From Geobacter metallireducens GS-15 (lineage in GTDB: Bacteria; Desulfobacterota; Desulfuromonadia; Geobacterales; Geobacteraceae): a DNA stretch of 32,000 nucleotides. Below, piece by piece: positions 2 through 29,043 of this stretch (its first letter is position 1; each line of letters opens with the position of its first letter). Position numbers and translations under genes: made by a program. The notes under the pieces are model-generated. The model searched no databases and was not told the DNA's origin. It saw nothing but the letters and a program-made list of their open reading frames with translations. The stretch covers positions 810,001 to 842,000 of the forward strand of contig NC_007517.1 in the NCBI RefSeq assembly GCF_000012925.1. Direction: 5' to 3'.

Positions 2-2185
2 GAGCCGACCTACGACAACTGTTATCAAGGGCCGTTTGCTTCCTACGGCTGTCCCAAGGACCCCTATGACAAAGAGAACGAAAACGCTCCGAGCCATCTG
101 GCCGATGTGGCGAAAGACATGCATGACGGCAACGCATCGCCGTTCAGTGGCAGGGTGCAGAATGTCTCCACCTACACCATCGGCTTGACGCTGGACAGCG
201 CCCTCCTCGATCAGACAGCGGTGAACGGAGGGGGAAAATACTTCACGACGACGTCGGGAATCAGTCTTGCCACGGCCGTCCAGAATGCCCTGGCCGATAT
301 TGTGTCCAAAATGGCGGCAGGAAGCAGCGTCGCCGTGAATACCCCGTTTCTGAACTCGAACAGCACGCTCTATCGGGCAAGATTCAAGTCACCGGACTGG
401 AACGGTTATCTGGAGGCCTTCAAGCTTGACGCCGCCACCGGTGCTATCATCGGATATCCGAACTCTCCCGAATGGGAGGCGGGCTCTCGACTCAATAGTC
501 GCTCATCTGCCCGGGCAATCTATACCGCCGGCGTGGATGGCGGCACGTACAAGCGGCTTGAGTACAGTACCGCCAACGGGACCAAACTGGCGGGTGCGGG
601 ATTCATGAATTTTTCGTCCGCAAAGGCCAGCGATCTCATCGGGTATATCCGCGGTGATCGCTACGGAACAACAAACCCCGCTGGGTATCGCAACCGGACG
701 AGCAAGCTCGGGGACATCATCTCATCATCACCCGTCGTCTACGGCCCTCCCGACGGTGTCTACACCGATGCAGCCTACAAAGCATTCAAGAGGGACTGGG
801 CAACCCGAACATCGCTCATTCTGGCGGGGGCCAACGACGGGATGCTCCACGCCTTTGACGCCGCGACCGGTGACGAGGCATGGGCTTTCATCCCGAATAT
901 TCTCTTAAGCAAGCTGAAGCTCCTGAGAAATGATCCCTATACGCACACAAGTTACGTCAATGGCGCGATCACGGTTGCCGACGCCTATATCCAGACGAAA
1001 AATGCCGACGGTACCACTGCCGGAACCGCGGGGTGGCGCTCCATAGCCGTCTGCGGCCTCCGCGACGGCGGCAAGGGGTATTTCGCCCTCGATATCACTG
1101 ATTCGGCCAATCCGATACCGTTATGGGAGCTTACCGCCACATCATCGGCAACACCGAACGGTCTGGGGTACTCGTTTGGAACCCCCCTGATCCTCAAACT
1201 GAGGGATGAAGCGGCAACCAGCGGATTCCGCTGGGTTGCGGCCCTTGCGAACGGCTATGAGGGACCCACAAGCAGCAAGGCCGCTTCGCTCATCATTGCC
1301 GACCTCGCCACGGGAGCGGTCATCAACGAGATCGTTGTCGACAAGTCGGCATTCAGTGGTGTCTCCCCTAATGGGCTTGCCTCTCCCGCTGCCATTGACA
1401 GGGATATGGACGGCTTCGCCGACACCCTCTATGCCGGGGATCTCAAAGGGAACATGTGGCGGTTTGACGTGAGCAGCGCCAAGATGGCCCAGTGGAAGGC
1501 TGACTGCATCTTTTCCGCCGGGGTCACCCAGCCGATAACCGCCGCTCCTGACGTGGTGGTGCGCCTCGGGTATCAGTATGTCTTCTTCGGCACCGGGAAA
1601 TACCTTGACGAGGGTGACAAGACCACATCATTCACTCAAAGCTTTTACGGGGTAAAGGATGATAATTCGACGAAAAATCTGACGCAAGCTGATCTGGTCG
1701 GTCAGACCATAACGGAGGTGACGTATTCGGGAGCCGTGTACCGGACCCTTTCAAGCTTTACGGTCGGCAGCAAGGATGGGTGGTATCTTGATCTCCCCGG
1801 TAAAGGCGAACGAGTTATCGCGGAACCTGAAGCTACCGGGACCAATGATGCCGGCAAGGTCAAATTCACAACTTTTATTCCATCCACCGATCCCTGTGAG
1901 CCGGGAGGTAAAGGTTGGCGCATGCAGGTCAATATGGAGACGGGTGGAGAGCCGAAGAAGTCGGTGTTTGTGGTGCCAGGAAGGCCGGACGGCACTGTCC
2001 CTGTGGGTGACAGCTCTCGGAGGCCCTCGGGGATGCTTCTCTCTTCTGGGACTGTGGCACCACCAGGAGGAACGAATGATTTGGATATCATCCAAAAAAT
2101 CGACACAGGTCTTGAACCTAAGCAAGATGAGAGCGGGACCCACCAGTTCGGTCTGCGGAGTTGGAGGCAGCTTCTGTCCATTTAG
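2..2185 (+). CDS. pilY1: PilY1-like type IV pilus tip adhesin, C-terminal part (5' end lies outside the window)
   Basis: The frame is open from nt 2 with no stop; the listed ORF 107..2185 simply begins at an internal GTG. The translation shows a vWA-like tail, then PilY1/PilC beta-propeller signatures GANDGMLHAFDAATGDEAWAFIP and the Ca-site-like DRDMDGFADTLYAGDLKGNMWRFD. Confidence 0.8.
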   Translation, partial: EPTYDNCYQGPFASYGCPKDPYDKENENAPSHLADVAKDMHDGNASPFSGRVQNVSTYTIGLTLDSALLDQTAVNGGGKYFTTTSGISLATAVQNALADIVSKMAAGSSVAVNTPFLNSNSTLYRARFKSPDWNGYLEAFKLDAATGAIIGYPNSPEWEAGSRLNSRSSARAIYTAGVDGGTYKRLEYSTANGTKLAGAGFMNFSSAKASDLIGYIRGDRYGTTNPAGYRNRTSKLGDIISSSPVVYGPPDGVYTDAAYKAFKRDWATRTSLILAGANDGMLHAFDAATGDEAWAFIPNILLSKLKLLRNDPYTHTSYVNGAITVADAYIQTKNADGTTAGTAGWRSIAVCGLRDGGKGYFALDITDSANPIPLWELTATSSATPNGLGYSFGTPLILKLRDEAATSGFRWVAALANGYEGPTSSKAASLIIADLATGAVINEIVVDKSAFSGVSPNGLASPAAIDRDMDGFADTLYAGDLKGNMWRFDVSSAKMAQWKADCIFSAGVTQPITAAPDVVVRLGYQYVFFGTGKYLDEGDKTTSFTQSFYGVKDDNSTKNLTQADLVGQTITEVTYSGAVYRTLSSFTVGSKDGWYLDLPGKGERVIAEPEATGTNDAGKVKFTTFIPSTDPCEPGGKGWRMQVNMETGGEPKKSVFVVPGRPDGTVPVGDSSRRPSGMLLSSGTVAPPGGTNDLDIIQKIDTGLEPKQDESGTHQFGLRSWRQLLSI

Positions 2186-11668: not shown

Positions 11669-12376
11669 ATGAAAAGGATACTATTTGCGCTTGCGCTGGT
11701 TGCATCAGTGGCAACATCTGGCTGGGCTATTACGTATACTGGTTCACTAGCCAGCAGTCCTGGTGGTGGATTGCTTGCAACTCTGGACTGGGCAGGGATA
11801 ACCACTGCCGGTGCTCCTAATTCTTCCCTGAGTTGGACTGTTGACGATACGACCAATACCGGTCTCTGGACCTACAACTACATCTGGACCGGAACGCGTA
11901 AGGGATTGAGCCACATCGTCATTGAAGTGTCGGATACTTTTACTAAAGACAACATTATGCAAATTTCCAGCGGGTATGATGGGGATGCCCCTAAAACCTA
12001 TTCTCCTTCTGATGCATCCAATGATGGCCTTCCCGCTGACATTTGGGGCATAAAGTGGAATGCTGAGGGAACTGTCTTCAATTTCAGTATCGTTACCGAT
12101 CGTGAGCCCATGTGGGGCGATGTATATGCCCGTGATGGAAAGACTGGCGGATCAGATGTCTATGCGTACAATACCGGCTTCGGCTTCGATACTGCTGCTG
12201 TCATTGCCGATGGCAACGCGTTCGATCAAGCGACCGGTCGCGCATGGGCACTGGTTCCCGATACGGAGAATGGCGGCGGCGGGCAGCAGGAGGTCGTTCC
12301 CGAACCGGGCACGATTATGCTCCTCGGCACCGGTCTGATCGGCCTTGCGCTTTATGGCAGGAGACGGATGAAGTAA
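11669..12376 (+). CDS. PEP-CTERM sorting-domain protein (predicted exosortase substrate)
   Basis: 235 aa. Signal peptide MKRILFALALVASVATSGWA. C-terminus VPEPGTIMLLGTGLIGLALYGRRRMK (PEP motif + TM helix + Arg cluster). GGAGG SD 5 nt upstream. GC is visibly lower than in the flanks. Confidence 0.9.
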   Translation: MKRILFALALVASVATSGWAITYTGSLASSPGGGLLATLDWAGITTAGAPNSSLSWTVDDTTNTGLWTYNYIWTGTRKGLSHIVIEVSDTFTKDNIMQISSGYDGDAPKTYSPSDASNDGLPADIWGIKWNAEGTVFNFSIVTDREPMWGDVYARDGKTGGSDVYAYNTGFGFDTAAVIADGNAFDQATGRAWALVPDTENGGGGQQEVVPEPGTIMLLGTGLIGLALYGRRRMK

Positions 12377-12513: not shown

Positions 12514-14277
12514 TTACTTGTAAACCGTTATGGAAGTGGTTGTGGTGTTGCCGGCGGCATCGAAGGCTTTGGACAGTATGGTGTGGGCACCGGTAGCGAT
12601 TTTTCGCGTATTCCAGCTGTAAGACAGGCTGGTGACGCCTGTTTTGCTGGTTGCCAGCTTGCCGTCAATGTAGAGCTCGATGCGGCTTACCCCCACATTG
12701 TCGCCGGCGGTGATGGTGATCGTTGCACTGGTCCCGACCTTTGCGCCGTTGGCCGGGGAGGTGATGGCGACGGTCGGGGCGATGGTGTCGGGAGTGTTTG
12801 AAACCTTGACCGAAACAGCGCTTGATTGCCCCATGTTTCCCGCGCCGTCGAAGGCCACGGCCTCCAGGGTGTAGGAGCCGTCCGCCGTGGTGGTGGTGTC
12901 CCACGAGAAGGCGTAGGGCGCGGTGGTTGCCGTGGCGAAGGGGGCGCCGTTGATGCGGAGCTCCACCTTGGCCACGCCGACGTTGTCAGAAGCCGCCACC
13001 GCCACCGACGCGTTTCCTTTCACGATACTGGAACTCGCGGGGGAGGTGATCGATGCGGTCGGGGCAGTTGTGTCGCCGACCGGCACTGCATTCTGGGCAG
13101 CCGTGAGGCTCTTGAGGACGTTGATCCGGCCGTAGCCGAAGTACTGATCGAAGCCGGGGGTGCCGATGTCGTCGGCATTTTTGGTGATGATGTCCACCAC
13201 CTGGGCATTGGTCAGGGTCGGGTTAACGGAGAGGATCAGCGCGCCGAGCCCCGCCGCGATGGGAGAGGAGAAGGAGGTGCCGCTCACGCTCGCATAGCCG
13301 CCGCCGTTGGCGGTGGTGAGGATGGAGACGCCGGGGGCCGCGATATCGATGGTGGAGCCGTAGTTGGAAAAGCTCGCCTTGGCGTCGTTGGCGTCGGTGG
13401 CCGCCACCGACACGGCGTTGGTGCAGGCGGCCGGATAGTAGGGGGTGCTCGTGTTGTAGTTGGCTGCCGAGGCAAAGACAATGGCTCCTTTGTTCCAGGC
13501 GTAGTTCACGGCATTCTGGAGAGTCGAGGAACTGGTGGAGCCGCCGTAGCTGAGATTGATGATGCGGACCCCATGATCGGCGGCGTAGGTGATGGCACTG
13601 GCCATGCGCGAGTAGGTAGCGTAGCCGGTGGAATCCGCGATCACCAGGGGCATGATCTGGTTCTGCCACGCCACGCCGGCAACCCCGGCGCCGTTATTAC
13701 CCATGGCCCCGGCCGAGCCTGCGACCTTTGTCCCGTGCCCGGTCACATCGTGGGTATCGGTGTTGTTGAAGACAAAGTTGAAACCGGGGAGAAGCTTGCC
13801 GGCCAGGTCCGGGTGAGATGGATCGACGCCCGAGTCCAGGATGGCGATGTCAACGGAACTGGAGCCGGTGGAGATGTCCCATCCCGCCGGAGCGGCAATC
13901 TTGGGGAGATGCCACTGGGAGGCGTAGGAGGGATCGTTGGGAACCATTGTCTGCTCAGCCAGGTAATTCTCTTCGACGAACGTTACGTGGGGATTCTTGG
14001 CCAGAGCAGCCTTGACCTTTGCCCGGGCAGCAGCAGGGACCTTGATCCTCTTTACCCGGATCGGAGCGATTTCCTCGGCTTCCCGGGCGCCGGCTCCCTT
14101 GAGGACGGTGTCGGCATTGGCCTTGTGGACGCCAGCCTTGAACTGGACAAGGAGCTCATCGGTTACGAACTTCTGGGGAGGGGGTGCGGCACCGGCCATT
14201 CCCGCTGCCAGGCAGAGGATGCCGAGGGTGCCAAGGTGAAGGGTGATCTTTCCACAAACTCGTTTCGTGCAGCGCAT
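12514..14277 (-). CDS. Secreted subtilisin-like serine peptidase (S8 family) with I9-like propeptide and two C-terminal Ig-like domains, paralog A
   Basis: 587 aa. Signal peptide ...LCLAAGMAGA/APPPQ. Catalytic triad contexts AILDSGVD, HDVTGHGTKVAG, SGTSFSSPIAAG. The C-terminus has 2 x (D-T-APT-x-I-T-SP...DNVGV..VE..I.G....WNT/WDT...G.H/Y.L...A.D.AGN). GGAGGTG SD upstream. Confidence 0.9.
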   Translation of the reverse strand: MRCTKRVCGKITLHLGTLGILCLAAGMAGAAPPPQKFVTDELLVQFKAGVHKANADTVLKGAGAREAEEIAPIRVKRIKVPAAARAKVKAALAKNPHVTFVEENYLAEQTMVPNDPSYASQWHLPKIAAPAGWDISTGSSSVDIAILDSGVDPSHPDLAGKLLPGFNFVFNNTDTHDVTGHGTKVAGSAGAMGNNGAGVAGVAWQNQIMPLVIADSTGYATYSRMASAITYAADHGVRIINLSYGGSTSSSTLQNAVNYAWNKGAIVFASAANYNTSTPYYPAACTNAVSVAATDANDAKASFSNYGSTIDIAAPGVSILTTANGGGYASVSGTSFSSPIAAGLGALILSVNPTLTNAQVVDIITKNADDIGTPGFDQYFGYGRINVLKSLTAAQNAVPVGDTTAPTASITSPASSSIVKGNASVAVAASDNVGVAKVELRINGAPFATATTAPYAFSWDTTTTADGSYTLEAVAFDGAGNMGQSSAVSVKVSNTPDTIAPTVAITSPANGAKVGTSATITITAGDNVGVSRIELYIDGKLATSKTGVTSLSYSWNTRKIATGAHTILSKAFDAAGNTTTTSITVYK

Positions 14278-14438
14278 GCGCCACCTCCATGGGTTGAGTT
14301 TGCTTCCTACCTCAGAAACAGACCCCCGTACCTATGGAAGGCGGGCGTTGCTCTTCGACAACCCGGCTATCCTGACCATGGAGTCAGGACCCGTGGCTTT
14401 GCGTCCCCCGGTTACCCGAAGTTTGCCCTTTCGGAAAC
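13057..14438. repeat. Direct repeat copy 1 (about 1.38 kb, near-identical to 15912..17293)
   Basis: By-eye alignment at a constant offset of 2855 nt. Identity begins at the codons for ...VPVGDTTAPT and runs through the catalytic domain, the start codon and 161 nt of leader. It ends abruptly at 14438/17293. Confidence 0.9.
14353..14438 (-). promoter_or_regulatory. GEMM-I (c-di-GMP / 3'3'-cGAMP class) riboswitch aptamer, copy 1, in the leader of S8 peptidase A
   Basis: Minus-strand RNA: GUUUCCGAAAGGGCAAAC-UUCGG-GUAA-CCGGG-GGACGCAAAGCC-ACGGGU-CCUGAC-UCCAUG-GUCAGG-AUAGCCGGGUUGUCGAAG. It contains the conserved GGCAAAC and GACGCAAAGCC blocks, a GNRA-capped P2, a P3 hairpin and the AGCCGGGUU block in canonical order. 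Confidence 0.75.
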
Positions 14439-14497
14439 TTTCTTCTTTATCTGTTACTACATTTCGGCGTCAGGATGGATAACTTGAGGGGAAAAAA

Positions 14498-14513
14498 TGT
14501 GACTTGAATCACA
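14498..14513. promoter_or_regulatory. CRP/FNR-superfamily-type palindrome TGTGA-N6-TCACA upstream of S8 peptidase A leader
   Basis: TGTGACTTGAATCACA is a perfect match to the CRP core half-sites. It lies about 67 nt upstream of the aptamer 5' end and overlaps the stop codon of the Crp/Fnr-family gene. Confidence 0.5.
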
Positions 14514-15225
14514 AAAACGGGGGATTGAGAAAGAGGGTAGGTTTGAGGAGCATTCTTCTGCTGGCGAGGAGTTCGATCTCTCCAGCACGGGAGAAGCGGC
14601 CCAAAATGCGGCTTGCCGTCTCCCGGGATACCGATGCGTAACCGGCGACGGTGCGGTGGGTTAGCTTGATGCTGAGAATTTTGCCACGAGAATCGTCCAC
14701 GCCATACTGGGTTCCGAGATATTTGAGGACTCCCCTGACCTTCTGCTCGGCGGAGGAAAAGCGTGACAGCTTCATGAGGAACCATGATTCGCGCAGCCGC
14801 GAACAAAGCACGCTGATGATCTGCCGCAGCATCCGGTCGTTGGTGAGAATCTGGTTTTCAAAGGCTGTCCGGGCAATGAGGCCGACGGTGGCGTCTTCGT
14901 GGGCGATGAGCGTTGCCGGAGACGTGCGGCCGTCAAGGAGGGCCATTTCGCCGAAAAACGCCCCCTTGCGATGAATGGCAAGGACCTGTTCCGTGCCGTC
15001 GTTGCTGTGCTGGACTACCCGCACTTTTCCCGCAAGGACGAGGTACATGTAGTTGGCTGTATCGGCTTCATGAAGGATGGTGCGATTTTTCGGAAAGACC
15101 TGGATCTCAATGAGCTTGCTTAACGTATTGATGTCATCGGGTGGGAGGGGGGCAAAGAGCGGAATGGCGCTCAGAATCGATTGGAGAGGGGCCGGTATGG
15201 TTGTACGTGGATTCTTGGAGTTCAT
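14509..15225 (-). CDS. Crp/Fnr-family transcriptional regulator (cNMP-binding domain + C-terminal HTH)
   Basis: cNMP-binding signature GAFFGEMALLDGRTSPATLIAHEDATV. HTH: THRTVAGYASVSRETASRILGRFSRAGEI. Start placed at ATG 15225 because a strong sigma-70-type promoter lies inside the longer GTG-initiated ORF (15288). Confidence 0.85.
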   Translation of the reverse strand: MNSKNPRTTIPAPLQSILSAIPLFAPLPPDDINTLSKLIEIQVFPKNRTILHEADTANYMYLVLAGKVRVVQHSNDGTEQVLAIHRKGAFFGEMALLDGRTSPATLIAHEDATVGLIARTAFENQILTNDRMLRQIISVLCSRLRESWFLMKLSRFSSAEQKVRGVLKYLGTQYGVDDSRGKILSIKLTHRTVAGYASVSRETASRILGRFSRAGEIELLASRRMLLKPTLFLNPPFL

Positions 15226-15249
15226 GGTGAGATACCTGTCGGTTGCCGG

Positions 15250-15277
15250 ATTATAATGCAAGTATAGCAGCCTTGAA
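15250..15277 (-). promoter_or_regulatory. Sigma-70-type promoter of the Crp/Fnr-family gene
   Basis: On the minus strand: TTCAAG (15277..15272), 16-nt spacer, TATAAT (15255..15250). About 25 nt upstream of ATG 15225. Confidence 0.55.
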
Positions 15278-15304
15278 GATGAATACACGTAACAGGGTAA
15301 CAGA

Positions 15305-15368: not shown

Positions 15369-17132
15369 TTACTTGTAGACGGTAATGGTGGTCGTACCGA
15401 CGTTTCCGAACCAGTCGAAGGCCTTGGCGAGAATTGTGTGAGTGCCCGTGGCTACCTTGCGGGTGTTCCATGCATAGGTGAGGGTGTTGGTGCCGCTTGC
15501 CGTGGTGAGGAGGAGTCCGTCAAAGTAAAGTTCAATCTTTCTGACCGCCAGATTGTCTTTTGCTGAAATGCTGACCGTCGTTTTTGTGCCGAGCGTGATG
15601 CCCGTTGCCGGCGCTGTGATGGAGACCGTGGGCGCAATGGTGTCCAGTGAGTTGTACACGACGATTCCCGCTAGGCTCAATTCTCCCACGTTCCCGGCGG
15701 CGTCATAGGCTTTGACCGCGATAGTGTAGATGCTGTCGGGCAGGGTGGTTGTGTCCCATGAGAAGCTGAAGGGGGATGTGTTACTGGAGGCGTACAGTGC
15801 GCCGTTTATGTAAAGCTCTATCCGGGTGACACCGATGTTGTCGGCTGCCGCAACGTTGACTGTTACCGTTCCCTTGACCGTCGAGCCGGCGTTGAGCGAT
15901 GGGATTGAGACTGTCGGGGCAGTTGTGTCGCCGACCGGCACCGCATTCTGGGCAGCCGTGAGGCTCTTGAGGACGTTGATCCGGCCGTAGCCGAAGTACT
16001 GATCGAAGCCGGGGGTGCCGATGTCGTCGGCATTTTTGGTGATGATGTCCACCACCTGGGCATTGGTCAGGGTCGGGTTAACGGAGAGGATCAGCGCGCC
16101 GAGCCCCGCTGCGATGGGAGAGGAGAAGGAGGTGCCGCTCACGCTCGCATAGCCGCCGCCGTTGGCGGTGGTGAGGATGGAGACGCCAGGGGCGGTGATA
16201 TCGATGGTGGAACCGTAGTTGGAGAAGCTCGCCTTGGCGTCGTTGGCGTCGGTGGCCGCCACCGACACGGCGTTGGTGCAGGCGGCCGGATAGTAGGGGG
16301 TGCTCGTGTTGTAGTTGGCTGCCGAGGCAAAGACAATGGCCCCTTTGTTCCAGGCGTAGTTCACGGCATTCTGGAGAGTCGAGGAACTGGTGGAGCCGCC
16401 GTAGCTGAGATTGATGATGCGGACCCCATGATCGGCGGCGTAGGTGATGGCACTGGCCATGCGCGAGTAGGTAGCGTAGCCGGTGGAATCCGCGATCACC
16501 AGGGGCATGATCTGGTTCTGCCACGCCACGCCGGCAACCCCGGCGCCGTTATTACCCATGGCCCCGGCCGAGCCTGCGACCTTTGTCCCGTGCCCGGTCA
16601 CATCGTGGGTATCGGTGTTGTTGAAGACAAAGTTGAAACCGGGGAGAAGCTTGCCGGCCAGGTCCGGGTGAGATGGATCGACGCCCGAGTCCAGGATGGC
16701 GATGTCAACGGAACTGGAGCCGGTGGAGATGTCCCATCCCGCCGGAGCGGCAATCTTGGGGAGATGCCACTGGGAGGCGTAGGAGGGATCGTTGGGAACC
16801 ATTGTCTGCTCAGCCAGGTAATTCTCTTCGACGAACGTTACGTGGGGATTCTTGGCCAGAGCAGCCTTGACCTTTGCCCGGGCAGCAGCAGGGACCTTGA
16901 TCCTCTTTACCCGGATCGGAGCGATTTCCTCGGCTTCCTGGGCGCCGGCTCCCTTGAGGACGGTGTCTGAATTGTCCTTGTGGACGCCAGCCTTGAACTG
17001 GACGAGGAGCTCATCGGTTACGAACTTCTGGGGAGGGGGGGCGGCACCGGCCATTCCCGCTGCCAGGCAGAGGATACCGAGGGTGCCAAGGTGAAGGGTG
17101 ATCTTCCCACAAACTCGTTTCGTGCAGCGCAT
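15369..17132 (-). CDS. Secreted subtilisin-like serine peptidase (S8 family) with two C-terminal Ig-like domains, paralog B
   Basis: 587 aa, the same length as paralog A. Only 4 aa differences over the first ~405 residues (signal, propeptide, catalytic domain), but roughly half identity over the last ~180 residues (Ig-like domains). Confidence 0.9.
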   Translation of the reverse strand: MRCTKRVCGKITLHLGTLGILCLAAGMAGAAPPPQKFVTDELLVQFKAGVHKDNSDTVLKGAGAQEAEEIAPIRVKRIKVPAAARAKVKAALAKNPHVTFVEENYLAEQTMVPNDPSYASQWHLPKIAAPAGWDISTGSSSVDIAILDSGVDPSHPDLAGKLLPGFNFVFNNTDTHDVTGHGTKVAGSAGAMGNNGAGVAGVAWQNQIMPLVIADSTGYATYSRMASAITYAADHGVRIINLSYGGSTSSSTLQNAVNYAWNKGAIVFASAANYNTSTPYYPAACTNAVSVAATDANDAKASFSNYGSTIDITAPGVSILTTANGGGYASVSGTSFSSPIAAGLGALILSVNPTLTNAQVVDIITKNADDIGTPGFDQYFGYGRINVLKSLTAAQNAVPVGDTTAPTVSIPSLNAGSTVKGTVTVNVAAADNIGVTRIELYINGALYASSNTSPFSFSWDTTTLPDSIYTIAVKAYDAAGNVGELSLAGIVVYNSLDTIAPTVSITAPATGITLGTKTTVSISAKDNLAVRKIELYFDGLLLTTASGTNTLTYAWNTRKVATGTHTILAKAFDWFGNVGTTTITVYK

Positions 17133-17293
17133 GCGCCACCTCCATGGGTTGAGTTTGCTTCCTACCTCAGAAACAGACCCCCGTACCTATGGAAGGCGGG
17201 CGTTGCTCTTCGACAACCCGGCTATCCTGACCATGGAGTCAGGACCCGTGGCTTTGCGTCCTCCGGTTACCCGAAGTTTGCCCTCTCGGAAAC
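15912..17293. repeat. Direct repeat copy 2 (near-identical to 13057..14438)
   Basis: See copy 1. I counted about 8 mismatches in the ~300 nt next to the 3' junction and very few elsewhere. Confidence 0.9.
17208..17293 (-). promoter_or_regulatory. GEMM-I riboswitch aptamer, copy 2, in the leader of S8 peptidase B
   Basis: Same sequence as copy 1 (offset +2855) except for 2 substitutions (17262, 17285). One converts a predicted U.G pair of P2 into U-A, which is consistent with the proposed helix. Confidence 0.75.
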
Positions 17294-17350: not shown

Positions 17351-17366
17351 CGTGACGGTTGTCACA
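17351..17366. promoter_or_regulatory. CRP-type palindrome CGTGA-N6-TCACA upstream of S8 peptidase B leader
   Basis: CGTGACGGTTGTCACA lies about 65 nt upstream of the aptamer 5' end, at almost the same distance as box 1, although the surrounding sequence is outside the duplicated segment. Confidence 0.45.
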
Positions 17367-26232: not shown

Positions 26233-29043
26233 CTACAGCTTCACGGTCTTGTATAAAAAGTTCTTGAATTTAAAGAATTTTTTCCGCTCATCGTCGTTTT
26301 CCTCGTCGTCGCCGTTCACCGCTTTCAGATAACGGGCCACCTGGGGCATGGCCTTGCCCGCCGCATCCTTTGCCCGCTCGATAACGAGCCGCACCACATC
26401 CCGGGAGATGGCGTTGGCGGAGTAGGGCTCGTAGACCGCTTCCCAGAAGGTCGCGCCGTTGGCGATCTGCTGCATGATGTCAACTGACAGCCGTTCGTTG
26501 AGCTCCTGGGCGGCGTTGGCAGGGGGGAGTTCCCGCATGCCGGCGGCTAGGGCACGGCGGATGTCGTCGGCGGTAAGGACTTTCCCTTTCCGGAAGAAGA
26601 GCGCCCGCAGCAGGATGCTCCGTAGCTCCCGGATGTTGCCGTGGTAGTGGTGGTTCATCAGGAGCTGCTTGGCGTCGCGGGTGAGGGTGGGGGTGTCCTC
26701 CTTGGGCTCGTCGCCGCGATAGGTGCGGTAGAGCTTGCCGAGGAAGTGGGTGGCCAGGTCGGGGATATCCTCACGCCGGTCATTCAGGGACGGCACCCGC
26801 ATCGACAGCTCCGAGAGGCGGTGGTAGAGGTCTTCCCGGAAGTTTCCCCGCCGGATCTCCTCGGTCAGGTCCTTGTTGGTGGCGGCCACCAGCAGCACCC
26901 GGCTGAACCGGTCCTGGTTGTCCCCCAGGCGCACGAAGCCGCCGTTGTCGAGAAAGCGCAGGAGCTGCACCTGGGTCTTGGGGTCGGCGTCGCCGATCTC
27001 ATCCAGGAAGACGATTCCCCCCGCCGCTTCTTCCAGAATCCCCTTCCGGTCGCTGTAGGCGCCGGTGAAGGCCCCCTTCTTGTGGCCGAAGAGCTCCGAG
27101 TAGGTGAGGTCCCCGCTGTAGGCGGCGATGTTGGTCTTTTTCACCGGGAGCTGGCCGCTGGGGTTCAGTTTCTCCCGGTACATCTCGTTCAGCTTGTTGT
27201 AGAGGTTGTTGAAAAAGAATTCCTTGCCGGCGCCGGTCTGCCCCAGGACCAGGATGGAGGGGAGGCCGATGGTGGCTTCCTGGAGCACGTTCTTGGACCA
27301 GAGGGTGATCCGGTTGAAGAGGGGAACCGACACGGTCTCGATGAAGTCGACGATCTCCTGGGCCTTGCGGCTGTTGCCGATGATGTTGCCGAGGCGGTAG
27401 GAGGAGATCTGGGGGTCTTTGTAGGCCACGTCGCTTTTAAGTCGCGTCACCTCGTTCTGGAGCCGCTCGATCCGCGTCAGGTCCGAGATGTGCCGGGCCG
27501 TGAGCCGGTCGATGATCTGGAGGATCCGCTTGTGCTCCTCGGTGAACCAGGCCGGCTTCAGGGAGTTGAGGCAGACCACGGCGATCACCTCGTCGTCGCA
27601 GACGATGGGGACGGCGATCTCGCTCTGGATCTGCTCGTGCATGGAGCGGTGGAACCCCTCGCCCTGCTGTTCGTCGGCCACGTGGGCGATGATCCTGGGC
27701 TGCTTCGACCAGGCCACGTACCCCGTGAGGCTCCGTTCCTCCGGGGGGAGCTCCCCCCCGCCGATCCGGAAGGGGGGGATGTGCTTCTTCATCCACGCCT
27801 TGTTCTTGGCGCCGACGATGGTCCCTTCCTCGTCCTCCACCAGGAGCCACTTACCCCCTTCCCGCTCCTCCACGATGGCGATGCTCCCGGTGTCGGCGCC
27901 GATGAGCTCTGTCGCCTTGGAGAGGACCTTGGTGAGGAAGGGCTGCAGCTCTTCGGTCCGTTCCTGGAGGAGTTCGGTGATTTCGGCCAGGACCCGGATC
28001 TCCAGGTGCTCGCCGCCGATCTCGTTCACGGCCCGCTCGGCCATCTCGGCGTGGGTTTGGAGAAGCCCCATCTCGAAGTCGGAGAAACGGTAGAGCTCAA
28101 CGGTGAAGTAGTTCACGAGGCAGATGACCTTGCGGCTGGACGGCTCGTAGCGGGGGACCACGTAGAGGGAACGGAGCGCCATCTCTTCGGTGAGGGCCTT
28201 CTTCTGGAGGGAGTGCTGGGTGAGGTCGGGGATGAAGAGGGGGCGCAGGAGCCGTTCGTCAGTAATGACGGCGTTGTCGTCGATGAAGCGGGAGATGAGG
28301 GAGGTGCCCCGCTGCAGCGCGATCTCTCCCTGTTCGTCGTAACGGGACTTGAACCGGGGGTCTTCCGAATGGCTGGCAAGGATGGCGAGTCGCGCCGTGC
28401 CGTCGTCGCCCATGACCGGCACGAGCACCGAGGCGAGCACCAGCTTGTCGATGAGGCGCACCGCCGACTGGACCATGAAGGAGGCGGCCTCCCGTTTTTT
28501 GTACTCGTCAACCCGCCGGGCCAGCAGGAGCTGCTGGTGGTAGATGCGGGCGGAGTCGATCCGGTCGGCCACGGAGGTGATGAACTCGCCCAGGAGGGCC
28601 TTATCCTTCCCCCTGAGGAGATCCGCCGGCTGGAAGCGGTCGATGCAGGCCACGCCGATGGACTTCCCCTGGCTCACCACCGGCAGGAGCGAGGAGATGC
28701 CGACGGCGAACCGCTCGGCAAAGCCGTTGTCGAAGGTGCTCGGGCCGGCCGGGTCATGCCGGAACTCAGCCGGGTACTGGCTGACGAACACGCTGGAGAC
28801 CGTGGCCTCCCGGGAAATGATGGGGAAGCTTACCGCACGGATCTCGTCTGCCAGAGGGCCCGAGGCGTAGACGCAGGAGAGGACTCCGCGGGTCAGGTCC
28901 TCCAGGTAGATGCGGATACGGTCCTGGCCCGAGACGAGGCGGATTCCCTCGGCAACGGCATGGAGCATCTCCTCCAGGTTTTCCTTGCCATAGTCGGCGA
29001 TGCGGTCGCGGAGTGCATTGAGCTGGGTGCTGAGATTGGTCAT
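26233..29043 (-). CDS. Sigma-54-dependent transcriptional activator (bEBP) with three N-terminal GAF-like domains
   Basis: 936 aa. Walker A LGQTGAGKEFF, the sigma-54 contact loop GAFTGA (GHKKGAFTGAYSDRKG), Walker B GGIVFLDEIGD, ELFGH. A long N-terminal region with repeated GAF-like units. The C-terminal ~100 aa is not a textbook Fis-type HTH by eye. Confidence 0.85.
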   Translation of the reverse strand: MTNLSTQLNALRDRIADYGKENLEEMLHAVAEGIRLVSGQDRIRIYLEDLTRGVLSCVYASGPLADEIRAVSFPIISREATVSSVFVSQYPAEFRHDPAGPSTFDNGFAERFAVGISSLLPVVSQGKSIGVACIDRFQPADLLRGKDKALLGEFITSVADRIDSARIYHQQLLLARRVDEYKKREAASFMVQSAVRLIDKLVLASVLVPVMGDDGTARLAILASHSEDPRFKSRYDEQGEIALQRGTSLISRFIDDNAVITDERLLRPLFIPDLTQHSLQKKALTEEMALRSLYVVPRYEPSSRKVICLVNYFTVELYRFSDFEMGLLQTHAEMAERAVNEIGGEHLEIRVLAEITELLQERTEELQPFLTKVLSKATELIGADTGSIAIVEEREGGKWLLVEDEEGTIVGAKNKAWMKKHIPPFRIGGGELPPEERSLTGYVAWSKQPRIIAHVADEQQGEGFHRSMHEQIQSEIAVPIVCDDEVIAVVCLNSLKPAWFTEEHKRILQIIDRLTARHISDLTRIERLQNEVTRLKSDVAYKDPQISSYRLGNIIGNSRKAQEIVDFIETVSVPLFNRITLWSKNVLQEATIGLPSILVLGQTGAGKEFFFNNLYNKLNEMYREKLNPSGQLPVKKTNIAAYSGDLTYSELFGHKKGAFTGAYSDRKGILEEAAGGIVFLDEIGDADPKTQVQLLRFLDNGGFVRLGDNQDRFSRVLLVAATNKDLTEEIRRGNFREDLYHRLSELSMRVPSLNDRREDIPDLATHFLGKLYRTYRGDEPKEDTPTLTRDAKQLLMNHHYHGNIRELRSILLRALFFRKGKVLTADDIRRALAAGMRELPPANAAQELNERLSVDIMQQIANGATFWEAVYEPYSANAISRDVVRLVIERAKDAAGKAMPQVARYLKAVNGDDEENDDERKKFFKFKNFLYKTVKL

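What the first reader, a model, noticed from the sequence alone, without database searches (positions are those of the whole stretch)
14278..14440. GEMM-I cyclic-dinucleotide riboswitch in the 161-nt leader of a secreted subtilase (copy 1)
Read on the minus strand, the leader is 5'-GUUUCCGAAAGGGCAAACUUCGGGUAACCGGGGGACGCAAAGCCACGGGUCCUGACUCCAUGGUCAGGAUAGCCGGGUUGUCGAAGAGC...-3'. All GEMM-I hallmark blocks are present in canonical order: GGCAAAC; a hairpin capped by a GNRA loop (UUCGG-GUAA-CCGGG); GGACGCAAAGCC; a second hairpin (CCUGAC/GUCAGG); then AGCCGGGUU. The whole is closed by a possible P1, UUUC(C)GA / UCGAAG. As I remember it, the V. cholerae Vc2 aptamer reads ..GGGCAAACC..GAAA..GGGACGCAAAGCC....GCGGGGUUACC. 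Geobacter is known to use GEMM-I variants for both c-di-GMP and 3'3'-cGAMP (GEMM-Ib; Kellenberger 2015, Nelson 2015), mostly in front of extracellular electron-transfer and surface genes. An extracellular S8 protease under this control would extend that regulon. Downstream I see no clean terminator. However, CUUCCAU (14340..14334) can pair with AUGGAGG (14290..14284, overlapping the SD) or alternatively with GGAAGC (14307..14302), which suggests translational gating. I cannot decide ligand specificity by eye.
Basis: partly seen in the sequence, partly recalled or inferred. Interest (0 to 1): 0.8.

Follow-up and report, generated by a model that had tools for sequence, protein, structure and literature searches.

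The report
GEMM-I riboswitch with U92 pocket variant
The leader of a secreted subtilase gene in this Geobacter genome carries a real cyclic-dinucleotide (GEMM-I / c-di-GMP-I) riboswitch, an ordinary kind of element, but one ligand-contacting base is U where the textbook aptamer has C, so its ligand preference (c-di-GMP or cGAMP) needs testing.

Summary
Rfam finds a full-length aptamer of the c-di-GMP-I clan on the minus strand at 14353-14436 (69.7 bits, E 2e-13). A near-identical second copy lies at 17208-17291 in front of a paralogous subtilase. The best-scoring model is the variant family RF03168 (c-di-GMP-I-UAU), not RF01051.

The three pocket positions read G20 / A47 / U92. This is neither the canonical GAC, nor the Geobacter cGAMP type (A20), nor true UAU.

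Orthologous subtilase leaders in other Geobacteraceae carry the same aptamer. Five lineages have U92 and five have C92. In an unselected metagenome sample U92 is rare (3 of 122).

The most likely ligand is c-di-GMP, read through a G-U wobble at lower affinity. cGAMP recognition through an A-U92 pair remains open.

The expression platform is a conserved four-strand swap combined with an anti-SD:SD helix that covaries between orthologues. I infer that ligand binding masks the ribosome-binding site (OFF switch). The direction is inferred, not shown.

Each leader also has a TGTGA-N6-TCAC site next to a Crp-family gene.

Verdict: a new member of a known kind, of moderate interest.

The parts
14353..14436 (-). 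Aptamer, copy 1 (c-di-GMP-I clan; best Rfam model RF03168). Key nucleotides: G20 = 14427, G21-C46 = 14426/14401, C22-G45 = 14425/14402, A47 = 14400, G91 = 14359, U92 = 14358, C93-G14 = 14357/14432. GUAA tetraloop at 14415-14412.
   Evidence: 69.7 bits, gathering score 65.9, E 2.3e-13, full length; positions read from the cmscan alignment and; structure counts.
14431..14438 (-). Strand a: the 5' strand of P1 (GUUUCCGA). Sequence identity between the two copies, and conservation among orthologues, begins here, so the transcript probably starts just upstream.
   Evidence: alignments; a:b and a:b' duplexes in 7 orthologues.
14349..14358 (-). Strand b: U92 plus the 3' strand of P1 and a linker (UCGAAGAGCA). 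It can pair either with strand a (forming P1) or with the U-rich strand a'.
14334..14347 (-). Anti-SD segment CGCCCGCCUUCCAU. It is also the 5' strand of local hairpin I.
   Evidence: MFE folds; duplex -26.2 kcal/mol, 3.6% of shuffles as good; analogous covarying segments in orthologues.
14319..14350 (-). Hairpin I (extended stem CAAC.GCCCGCCU / AGG..CGGGG.GU.UG). It sequesters the anti-SD and is terminator-like, being followed by UUUCU.
   Evidence: terminator-like hit, not enriched over shuffles; fold of the truncated transcript, -15.8 kcal/mol; compensatory G-C to A-U change in L122.
14312..14319 (-). Strand a': GUUUCUGA, a U-rich mimic of the P1 5' strand. It pairs with strand b or with strand b'.
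   Evidence: conserved in all 7 orthologues.
14298..14308 (-). Strand b': AGGAAGCAAAC, a purine-rich mimic of the P1 3' strand. It pairs with a' (helix H2) or with the 5' end strand a (helix X).
   Evidence: helix X state at -63.5 kcal/mol; a':b' -7.0 and a:b' -8.5 kcal/mol; the G-to-A change in L123 keeps both pairings.
14279..14290 (-). SD-side strand of the sequestering helix, AUGGAGGUGGCG. It contains the Shine-Dalgarno GGAGG at 14288-14284. The start codon is at 14277-14275.
   Evidence: probability that the SD is unpaired is 0.01-0.04 at equilibrium.
12514..14277 (-). Regulated gene: 587-aa secreted S8 subtilase (Fervidolysin N-prodomain, Peptidase_S8, two Big_7 Ig-like domains). It is 91% identical to a Geobacter hydrogenophilus S8 peptidase.
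14498..14513 (-). TGTGATTCAAGTCACA palindrome (CRP/FNR-type site), centred about 67 nt upstream of the aptamer start. It overlaps the stop codon of the Crp-family gene.
   Evidence: 3 matches in the window, all in the two leaders; expected 0.2; conserved in orthologous leaders that have an adjacent Crp gene, absent in L126, which has none.
14509..15288 (-). Crp/Fnr-family regulator gene (cNMP_binding + HTH_Crp_2) between the two subtilase modules. Judging by the 238-aa orthologue, the likely true start is the ATG at 15225.
17208..17291 (-). Aptamer, copy 2. It differs from copy 1 at 2 positions and has the same G20/A47/U92.
15369..17132 (-). Paralogous subtilase controlled by copy 2. The leader and the first ~1.4 kb are 94-100% identical to module 1; the C-terminal Ig-like region is only ~60% identical.
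17352..17366 (-). TGTGACAACCGTCAC site upstream of copy 2, centred about 65 nt upstream of the aptamer start.

Best explanation
Each subtilase mRNA starts with a functional class-I cyclic-di-GMP (GEMM-I) riboswitch. The aptamer has the standard architecture: three helices, a GUAA tetraloop, the G21-C46 / C22-G45 junction pairs and the intercalating A47. G20 is available to read one guanine of the ligand on its Hoogsteen face. The nucleotide that normally forms a Watson-Crick pair with the second guanine (C92) is U.

I propose that the natural ligand is still c-di-GMP. The second guanine would be held by a G-U92 wobble, which makes this a lower-affinity, higher-threshold sensor that may also accept 3',3'-cGAMP.

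Gene control works through a four-strand swap:
- With ligand, strand a (GUUUCCGA) pairs with strand b (UCGAAG) to close P1. The U-rich mimic a' then pairs with the purine mimic b' (helix H2). This undermines hairpin I, and the released anti-SD (CGCCCGCCUUCCAU) pairs with AUGGAGGUGGCG and hides the ribosome-binding site. Translation is OFF.
- Without ligand, b pairs with a' and a pairs with b'. This extends and locks hairpin I around the anti-SD and leaves the SD free. Translation is ON.

A Crp-family regulator encoded next door probably controls the promoter through the TGTGA-N6-TCAC site.

What is shown: aptamer identity, the pocket nucleotides, conservation, and the complementarities. What is inferred: the ligand, the direction of switching, and the role of Crp.
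For: Aptamer:
- Rfam full-length hits at E ~1e-13 for both copies.
- The same aptamer lies 52-87 nt upstream of orthologous subtilase genes in L121, L122 (x2), L123, L125, L126, L127, L128, L211 and L236.
- 98% of structure cells are paired, with 4 compensatory pairs including C22-G45 to U22-A45.

Pocket:
- The cmscan alignment places G at model position 10 (Vc2 G20), A at 37 (A47) and U at 76 (C92).
- The roles of G20, A47, C92 and the G14-C93 pair come from PMC6140456 and PMC9049102.

U92 is maintained, not a one-off mutation. It is in both copies in three genomes and in two further lineages whose subtilases are only 68% identical.

U92 is tolerated for c-di-GMP. Vc2 C92U still responds to c-di-GMP in vivo, more weakly (10.1101/617340). 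Orthologous leaders alternate between C92 and U92, and so do leaders of FN3-like secreted proteins.

Platform:
- Every orthologue's MFE fold contains an anti-SD:SD helix whose sequence differs with each orthologue's own SD flanks: CACCUUCGC/GCGAAGGUG in L125, GUCUACC/GGUAGAC in L127, UCCACCUCC/GGAGGUGGA in L126. L125 reaches z = -3.8.
- The a, b, a', b' complementarities are present in all 7 orthologues tested.
- In the window, enforcing the aptamer favours the SD-masked state by 11 kcal/mol over the hairpin-I state (-65.8 against -54.8). Without P1, the hairpin-I + helix-X state (SD free) is only 5.7 kcal/mol above the MFE.

Precedent: the C. difficile zmpI protease mRNA has a class-I riboswitch and is repressed by c-di-GMP (PMC6366702).
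Against: - No binding or expression data exist for this RNA.
- The best Rfam model is the variant RF03168. As far as I know its ligand has not been established, so related U92-type aptamers may not bind c-di-GMP at all.
- A review (PMC12032345) reports that C92U lets the class-I aptamer bind 3',3'-cGAMP. Geobacter uses cGAMP signalling (PMC6456294), so cGAMP is a serious alternative ligand.
- Characterised Geobacter GEMM-I riboswitches are ON switches with terminators, the opposite polarity to my model.
- In L125 and L127 the P1 3' end (ACAG) overlaps the base of a good hairpin plus U-tract, which reads naturally as ligand-dependent antitermination.
- At equilibrium the SD is masked with or without the aptamer constraint, so the switch has to be kinetic. 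Folding energies cannot settle the polarity.
- Anti-SD duplex scores are only modestly better than shuffles in most single orthologues, and not better in L128 and L236.
Confidence: 0.5

Rival explanations
1. The G20/U92 aptamer is a 3',3'-cGAMP (or dual cGAMP / c-di-GMP) sensor. It would read the ligand in the mirror orientation of GEMM-Ib: the guanine sits on G20 and the adenine forms a Watson-Crick pair with U92. This would place the subtilases in the Geobacter cGAMP regulon.
For: - PMC12032345, citing Shanahan et al. 2011, states that C92U enables the class-I riboswitch to bind 3',3'-cGAMP. C92U Vc2 structures 3UD3 and 3UD4 exist.
- Geobacter makes cGAMP and has many cGAMP riboswitches on surface and extracellular genes.
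- U92 is kept in both copies across several species, although it is rare in general (3 of 122).
Against: - Known Geobacter cGAMP riboswitches all use A at position 20 with C at 92. An example is L039.
- Orthologous leaders with C92/G20, the canonical c-di-GMP type, control the same gene in sister lineages. A ligand change would therefore mean rewiring an orthologous gene.
- Vc2 C92U still responds to c-di-GMP.
- The primary paper could not be read.
Confidence: 0.2
2. The same aptamer acts as a transcriptional ON switch, like other Geobacter GEMM-I elements. Without ligand, the hairpin plus U-rich tract (14350-14312) terminates transcription. Ligand-stabilised P1 withholds the base of that hairpin and allows read-through.
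For: - Hairpin I is followed by UCUGUUUCU.
- In L125 and L127 the P1 3' end ACAG is the base of an 11-bp hairpin followed by UUUUU or CUUUUCU.
- Geobacter GEMM-Ib riboswitches are terminator-based ON switches (PMC6456294).
Against: - In the window and its close relatives the core of hairpin I (14350-14319) does not overlap P1. P1 competes only for pairs made by the U-tract itself.
- The U-tract is short and interrupted (UUUCU).
- Terminator-like hits in this region are no more frequent than in shuffles.
- The model leaves the covarying anti-SD:SD helix unexplained. It also predicts that read-through mRNA would be translationally masked.
Confidence: 0.22
3. The U92 aptamers belong functionally with the orphan c-di-GMP-I-UAU variants and sense some other, unidentified ligand. 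Alternatively, U92 pairs with A15 to close the pocket, so that the RNA has become a ligand-independent structured leader.
For: - The best Rfam match is RF03168, above its gathering score.
- RNAalifold finds an alternative GACG:UGUC pairing that is possible only in U92 sequences.
Against: - Position 20 is G, not the conserved U of the UAU model, in all eleven U92 and C92 orthologues.
- The rest of the pocket (A47, G21-C46, G14-C93) is intact.
- The high score for RF03168 is explained by shared lineage features (GUAA loop, CCACGG, AGCCGGGUUG) plus U92.
- The aptamer sequence is under strong conservation, which argues against decay.
Confidence: 0.08

Closest known systems
c-di-GMP-I riboswitch (GEMM-I, Rfam RF01051; prototype V. 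cholerae Vc2)
   Same: - Three-helix junction, GNRA tetraloop hairpin, GCAAAC and ACGCAAAGC blocks.
- G20, A47, and the G21-C46 and G14-C93 closing pairs.
- Position in a 5' leader of a secreted or surface gene.
- Same Rfam clan.
   Different: - Position 92 is U instead of the C that forms a Watson-Crick pair with G-beta.
- J1/2 is one nucleotide shorter than in Vc2 (4 nt, also seen in some C92 members).
- The RF01051 score could not be displayed.
c-di-GMP-I-UAU variant (Rfam RF03168; from Weinberg et al. 2017 PNAS, which I could not read; ligand not established to my knowledge)
   Same: - Highest-scoring Rfam model, above its gathering score.
- Shares U at position 92, G at 91, the GUAA loop, the CCACGG/AGCCGG P2 base and the UGUC-AAG 3' end.
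   Different: The model's conserved U at position 10 (Vc2 position 20) is G in the window and in every orthologue. The pocket is therefore G-A-U, not U-A-U. It looks like an intermediate between GAC and UAU.
GEMM-Ib 3',3'-cGAMP riboswitches of Geobacter (Gs1761, pgcA; PDB 4YAZ)
   Same: Same genus, same fold, G at the position equivalent to 91, and extracellular or surface gene targets.
   Different: - GEMM-Ib has A at position 20 and C at 92; here it is G20 and U92.
- GEMM-Ib members are terminator-based ON switches; here an SD-sequestering platform is inferred.
Vc2 C92U laboratory mutant (PDB 3MUR, 3UD3, 3UD4)
   Same: Identical pocket composition, G20/A47/U92. It retains a weakened c-di-GMP response in vivo and is reported to gain 3',3'-cGAMP binding.
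   Different: It is an engineered point mutant in a Vibrio scaffold. The window carries a natural, evolutionarily maintained version with its own expression platform.
C. difficile zmpI (PPEP-1) class-I c-di-GMP riboswitch
   Same: A secreted protease whose mRNA leader carries a class-I aptamer and is repressed by c-di-GMP. This is the same regulatory logic that I infer here.
   Different: - Firmicute metalloprotease, with transcription termination as the mechanism.
- Its surface-protein substrates are known. Here a link between the subtilases and the neighbouring PEP-CTERM protein is only a guess.

Membership tests
c-di-GMP-I clan (Rfam CL00126) | Significant covariance-model match over the full aptamer | tested here: met
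   69.7 and 69.2 bits, E ~2-3e-13, model positions 1-81 of 81. Three more clan hits above their gathering scores are hidden by the clan filter.
c-di-GMP-I (RF01051, canonical GEMM-I) | RF01051 hit at or above its gathering score | tested here: inconclusive
   The tool reports only the best family per clan. Lower-scoring clan hits above their gathering scores exist, but which families they are is not shown.
c-di-GMP-I (RF01051, canonical GEMM-I) | P1 / P1b / P2 three-helix junction with base-pair conservation | tested here: met
   26 pairs, 98.1% of cells paired, 4 pairs with compensatory change. Slid controls give 30-54%.
c-di-GMP-I (RF01051, canonical GEMM-I) | GNRA tetraloop on the first hairpin (docks into P2) | tested here: met
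   GUAA at 14415-14412; GCAA in some orthologues. The receptor contact itself was not tested.
c-di-GMP-I (RF01051, canonical GEMM-I) | A47 intercalating adenine | tested here: met
   A at 14400, invariant in all orthologues. Role from PMC9049102.
c-di-GMP-I (RF01051, canonical GEMM-I) | G at position 20 (reads G-alpha) | tested here: met
   G at 14427. G in all 11 orthologous leaders.
c-di-GMP-I (RF01051, canonical GEMM-I) | C at position 92 (Watson-Crick pair with G-beta) | tested here: not met
   U at 14358 and at 17213. C in orthologues L125, L126, L127, L211 and L236. This position is described as less conserved in the family.
c-di-GMP-I (RF01051, canonical GEMM-I) | Binds c-di-GMP and changes gene expression | not testable with these tools
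   Needs in-line probing or ITC, plus reporters.
c-di-GMP-I-UAU (RF03168) | Score at or above the curated gathering score (65.9 bits) | tested here: met
   69.7 and 69.2 bits.
c-di-GMP-I-UAU (RF03168) | U at position 20 (model position 10, conserved U in the consensus) | tested here: not met
   G aligned to model position 10 in both copies and in all orthologues. That the family name refers to positions 20/47/92 is my inference from the model consensus; the defining paper was not available.
c-di-GMP-I-UAU (RF03168) | U at position 92 (model position 76) | tested here: met
   U at 14358 and 17213.
GEMM-Ib (3',3'-cGAMP riboswitch) | A at position 20 (A14 of Gs1761) | tested here: not met
   G at 14427. 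Definition from PMC6140456.
GEMM-Ib (3',3'-cGAMP riboswitch) | Selective binding of 3',3'-cGAMP | not testable with these tools
   Needs binding assays. C92U is reported to permit cGAMP binding.

The most novel reading that the evidence does not exclude
A clade of Geobacter has fixed a G20/A47/U92 pocket in both subtilase riboswitches. These RNAs would be natural cGAMP (or dual c-di-GMP/cGAMP) sensors that read the adenine of 3',3'-cGAMP at the beta site through an A-U92 Watson-Crick pair. That is the mirror image of the GEMM-Ib solution (A20 at the alpha site). It would also be the evolutionary intermediate between canonical GAC aptamers and the orphan UAU variant. They would act as translational OFF switches layered on a Crp-dependent promoter.
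Probability: 0.15. Interest if true: 0.7.

Novelty: new member of a known kind. Interest (0 to 1): 0.4.

Why it matters
As a riboswitch call this is routine. GEMM-I elements are abundant in Geobacter, and Rfam detects this one automatically. Three things give it some value.

1. It puts two secreted subtilases under cyclic-dinucleotide control. A conserved neighbouring Crp-family regulator and a PEP-CTERM protein may belong to the same picture. This extends the Geobacter second-messenger regulon from cytochromes and pili to extracellular proteolysis.

2. The pocket is the natural counterpart of the much-studied Vc2 C92U mutant, and it sits in an organism that uses both c-di-GMP and cGAMP. Orthologous C92 and U92 leaders of the same gene are a ready-made natural experiment on how one nucleotide tunes affinity or specificity.

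3. The G-A-U combination links the canonical class to the orphan UAU variant and may help identify that variant's ligand.

Tried and rejected
- **RF01051 score.**
- **Primary papers not held in the library.** Weinberg 2017 PNAS, which defines the GGC and UAU variants; Smith 2009 and 2010; Kellenberger 2013 and 2015; Shanahan 2011. Statements about C92U therefore rest on secondary citations.
- **First genome-wide pattern.** The pattern was too loose at its 3' end.
- **Exact look-up of the window's subtilase** found nothing.
- **My own covariance model.** I considered building one from the canonical C92 aptamers. I rejected it as circular, because those sequences were retrieved with a pattern derived from the window.
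- **RNAalifold on the orthologues** mis-pairs the junction (GACG with UGUC/UGCC). I therefore counted pairs on the Rfam-type structure instead.
- **Equilibrium folding** cannot decide polarity, because the SD is masked with or without the aptamer constraint.
- **A P2-3'-strand : CAAC-CCC 'helix C' antiterminator** was rejected as the main switch. It is absent from the C92 orthologues.
- **Cyclic-dinucleotide enzymes.** No GGDEF, EAL or HD-GYP gene was found in the window, so local context does not point to a ligand.
Full report
**1. What is there**

A scan of the whole 32-kb window against all Rfam families at curated thresholds returns only two hits. Both are on the minus strand, full length, and to the same model: RF03168 'c-di-GMP-I-UAU' (clan CL00126). 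They lie at 14353-14436 (69.7 bits, gathering score 65.9, E 2.3e-13) and at 17208-17291 (69.2 bits). Three additional overlapping clan hits that passed their own thresholds are suppressed by the tool.

**2. Genes and organism**

Each aptamer lies 76 nt upstream of a 587-aa ORF: 12514-14277 and 15369-17132, both on the minus strand. Each ORF has a hydrophobic N-terminus, a Fervidolysin-type prodomain, a Peptidase_S8 domain and Ig-like Big_7 domains. The closest database protein is an S8 peptidase of Geobacter hydrogenophilus (91% identity). Synteny with that genome is complete: QueH, subtilase, Crp, subtilase, PEP-CTERM protein, Hda, RuvB.

Between the two modules sits a Crp/Fnr-family regulator gene (14509-15288). 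The two modules are 94-100% identical from the first base of the aptamer to about codon 400, and only about 60% identical after that. Within G. hydrogenophilus and within L122, the two leaders likewise share their own private substitutions. The modules therefore evolve in concert.

**3. The aptamer is conserved with the gene**

Orthologous subtilases were found in these loci:
- G. hydrogenophilus (L121, two copies)
- L122 (two copies)
- L128
- L123 / L124
- G. argillaceus (L127)
- L125 and L126
- two metagenome contigs (L211, L236)

All are preceded by the same aptamer. On ten of these leaders, the standard GEMM-I structure is formed in 98.1% of cells. Four pairs show double (compensatory) changes, including the junction pair C22-G45 becoming U22-A45. 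No shuffle reaches the observed value, and slid controls give 30-54%.

**4. The ligand pocket**

In Vc2:
- G20 reads G-alpha through its Hoogsteen face.
- A47 intercalates.
- C92 forms a Watson-Crick pair with G-beta.
- The G14-C93 and G21-C46 pairs close the pocket.

The Geobacter cGAMP class (GEMM-Ib) replaces G20 by A (PMC6140456, PMC9049102, PMC7288161).

In the cmscan alignment the window has:
- G at model position 10 (= position 20; coordinate 14427)
- A at position 37 (= A47; 14400)
- G-U-C at positions 75-77 (= 91-93; 14359-14357)

The pocket is therefore G20 / A47 / U92. The RF03168 consensus has a conserved U at position 10, so the window RNA is not a true 'UAU' aptamer. It wins that model because of U92 and because of lineage-specific similarity (GUAA loop, CCACGG, AGCCGGGUUGUC).

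**5. How unusual is U92?**

- Among orthologous subtilase leaders, U92 occurs in the window, L121, L122, L128 and L123. C92 occurs in L125, L126, L127, L211 and L236. G20 is invariant.
- A metagenome scan with Y allowed at position 92 gave 119 C and 3 U among 122 matches.
- Two of those three U92 cases (L158, L229) precede FN3-like secreted proteins. A paralogous or orthologous leader of the same type (L198) has C92.
- A U92-biased genome scan shows G20/U92 aptamers scattered through many phyla.

U92 is thus rare and recurrent. In this Geobacter clade it is stably inherited in both copies.

**6. Ligand inference**

The engineered Vc2 C92U mutant has the same pocket. It keeps a reduced c-di-GMP response in vivo (10.1101/617340). 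According to a review citing Shanahan et al. 2011, it also gains 3',3'-cGAMP binding (PMC12032345; structures 3MUR, 3UD3 and 3UD4 are listed).

The same gene in sister lineages is controlled by a canonical G20/C92 aptamer. I therefore take c-di-GMP, held by a G-U wobble with lower affinity, as the most likely ligand (about 0.6). A cGAMP or dual-specificity sensor is the main alternative (about 0.2-0.25). Neither can be decided computationally.

**7. Expression platform**

Three features are conserved in the orthologues even though the sequences diverge.

(a) *A pyrimidine-rich anti-SD just 3' of P1.* It is complementary to each orthologue's own SD region:
- window: CGCCCGCCUUCCAU with AUGGAGGUGGCG
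- L125: CACCUUCGC with GCGAAGGUG
- L127: GUCUACC with GGUAGAC
- L126: UCCACCUCC with GGAGGUGGA
- L211: ACACCUCCU with AGGAGGUGU

This helix is in every MFE fold. It beats dinucleotide shuffles modestly in most cases, strongly in L125, and not at all in L128 and L236.

(b) *A local hairpin (hairpin I, 14350-14319).* It contains the anti-SD and is followed by a U-rich tract.

(c) *Four mutually complementary strands.* These are a (GUUUCCGA, 14438-14431), b (UCGAAGAGCA, 14358-14349), a' (GUUUCUGA, 14319-14312) and b' (AGGAAGCAAAC, 14308-14298). The pairings a:b, b:a', a':b' and a:b' are possible in all seven orthologues tested.

In the window, the energies are as follows:

| State | Energy (kcal/mol) |
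|---|---|
| Aptamer (with P1) enforced, SD masked | -65.8 |
| Aptamer (with P1) enforced, hairpin I retained | -54.8 |
| No P1: b:a' + a:b' + hairpin I, SD free | -63.5 |
| Unconstrained MFE | -69.2 |

The simplest reading is a kinetic OFF switch. Ligand-locked P1 leaves a' free to pair with b'. Hairpin I is undermined, and the anti-SD captures the SD.

The alternative reading is a terminator-based ON switch, as in characterised Geobacter GEMM-Ib elements. It fits L125 and L127 reasonably well, because there P1's ACAG forms the base of the hairpin. It does not fit the window, where the hairpin core does not overlap P1, and it leaves the anti-SD helix without a role. I give OFF about 0.5, ON about 0.25, and the remainder undecided. 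Repression of a secreted protease by a class-I c-di-GMP riboswitch has a precedent in C. difficile zmpI (PMC6366702).

**8. Promoter context**

The pattern TGTGA-N6-TCAC occurs only in the two leaders: 14498-14513 (palindromic) and 17352-17366. That is 3 matches against 0.2 expected. The sites are centred 65-67 nt upstream of the first conserved aptamer base. The motif is conserved in orthologous leaders that have an adjacent Crp-family gene. It is missing in L126, which has no such gene. A Crp-family activator and a riboswitch therefore probably act in series. This is inference only.

**9. Verdict**

The element is a new member of a known class, and Rfam already recognises it. Its only unusual trait is the naturally maintained G20/A47/U92 pocket, which sits between the canonical, cGAMP and orphan UAU types.

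- Interest: 0.4.
- Probability that it is a functional clan-CL00126 riboswitch: about 0.9.
- Probability of the full package (c-di-GMP ligand plus translational OFF switch): about 0.35-0.5.

Noticed in passing
window 17208-17291 (-), with gene 15369-17132 (-): A second, near-identical riboswitch-subtilase module. The leader plus the first ~1.4 kb of the gene are 94-100% identical to module 1, and the C-terminal Ig-like domains are only ~60% identical. The same two-module layout, with within-genome identical leaders, occurs in G. hydrogenophilus (L121) and in L122. This indicates concerted evolution or gene conversion that includes the riboswitch.
   Followed up: yes
window 14498-14513 and 17352-17366; Crp-family gene 14509-15288 (-): CRP/FNR-type palindromes (TGTGATTCAAGTCACA and TGTGACAACCGTCAC) about 65-67 nt upstream of each aptamer. 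These are the only matches in the window (expected 0.2). They are conserved in orthologous leaders that have an adjacent Crp-family gene and absent in L126, which has none. The copy-1 site overlaps the regulator's own stop codon.
   Followed up: partly
window 11669-12376 (+): A PEP-CTERM (exosortase-sorted) protein gene lies convergent to subtilase 1. A PEP-CTERM gene is in the same position in L121, L123, L126, L127 and L128. It could be a substrate or partner of the protease; no riboswitch precedes it.
   Followed up: partly
window 14280-14272 (-): The start codon sits in the middle of a perfect palindrome, CGCAUGCGC (GGCGCAUGCGCUGC). In the SD-free state this folds into a small hairpin with the AUG in or near the loop. 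Its relevance is unknown.
   Followed up: no
L158, L229 against L198 (metagenome contigs): Another Geobacter-like GEMM-I leader family, upstream of FN3-like secreted proteins, also alternates between U92 (L158, L229) and C92 (L198). The C-to-U change at position 92 therefore recurs independently of the subtilase leaders.
   Followed up: partly
alignment A3 columns 36-39 with 85-88 (window 14405-14402 with 14360-14357): RNAalifold prefers a non-native GACG:UGUC pairing. Its A-U pair exists only in U92 sequences (it is A-C in C92 orthologues). U92 might therefore stabilise an alternative ligand-free fold of the junction.
   Followed up: no
L126 5988-6094 (+): A PyrR-binding-site RNA (RF00515, 61.6 bits) lies upstream of a phosphoribosyltransferase / aspartate carbamoyltransferase pair in one orthologous contig. 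It is unrelated to the finding.
   Followed up: no
window 107-2185 (+) and 26233-29043 (-): A PilY1-domain protein (type IV pilus-associated) and a GAF-domain sigma-54 activator are encoded elsewhere in the window. No GGDEF, EAL or HD-GYP gene was detected in the ORFs scanned.
   Followed up: no
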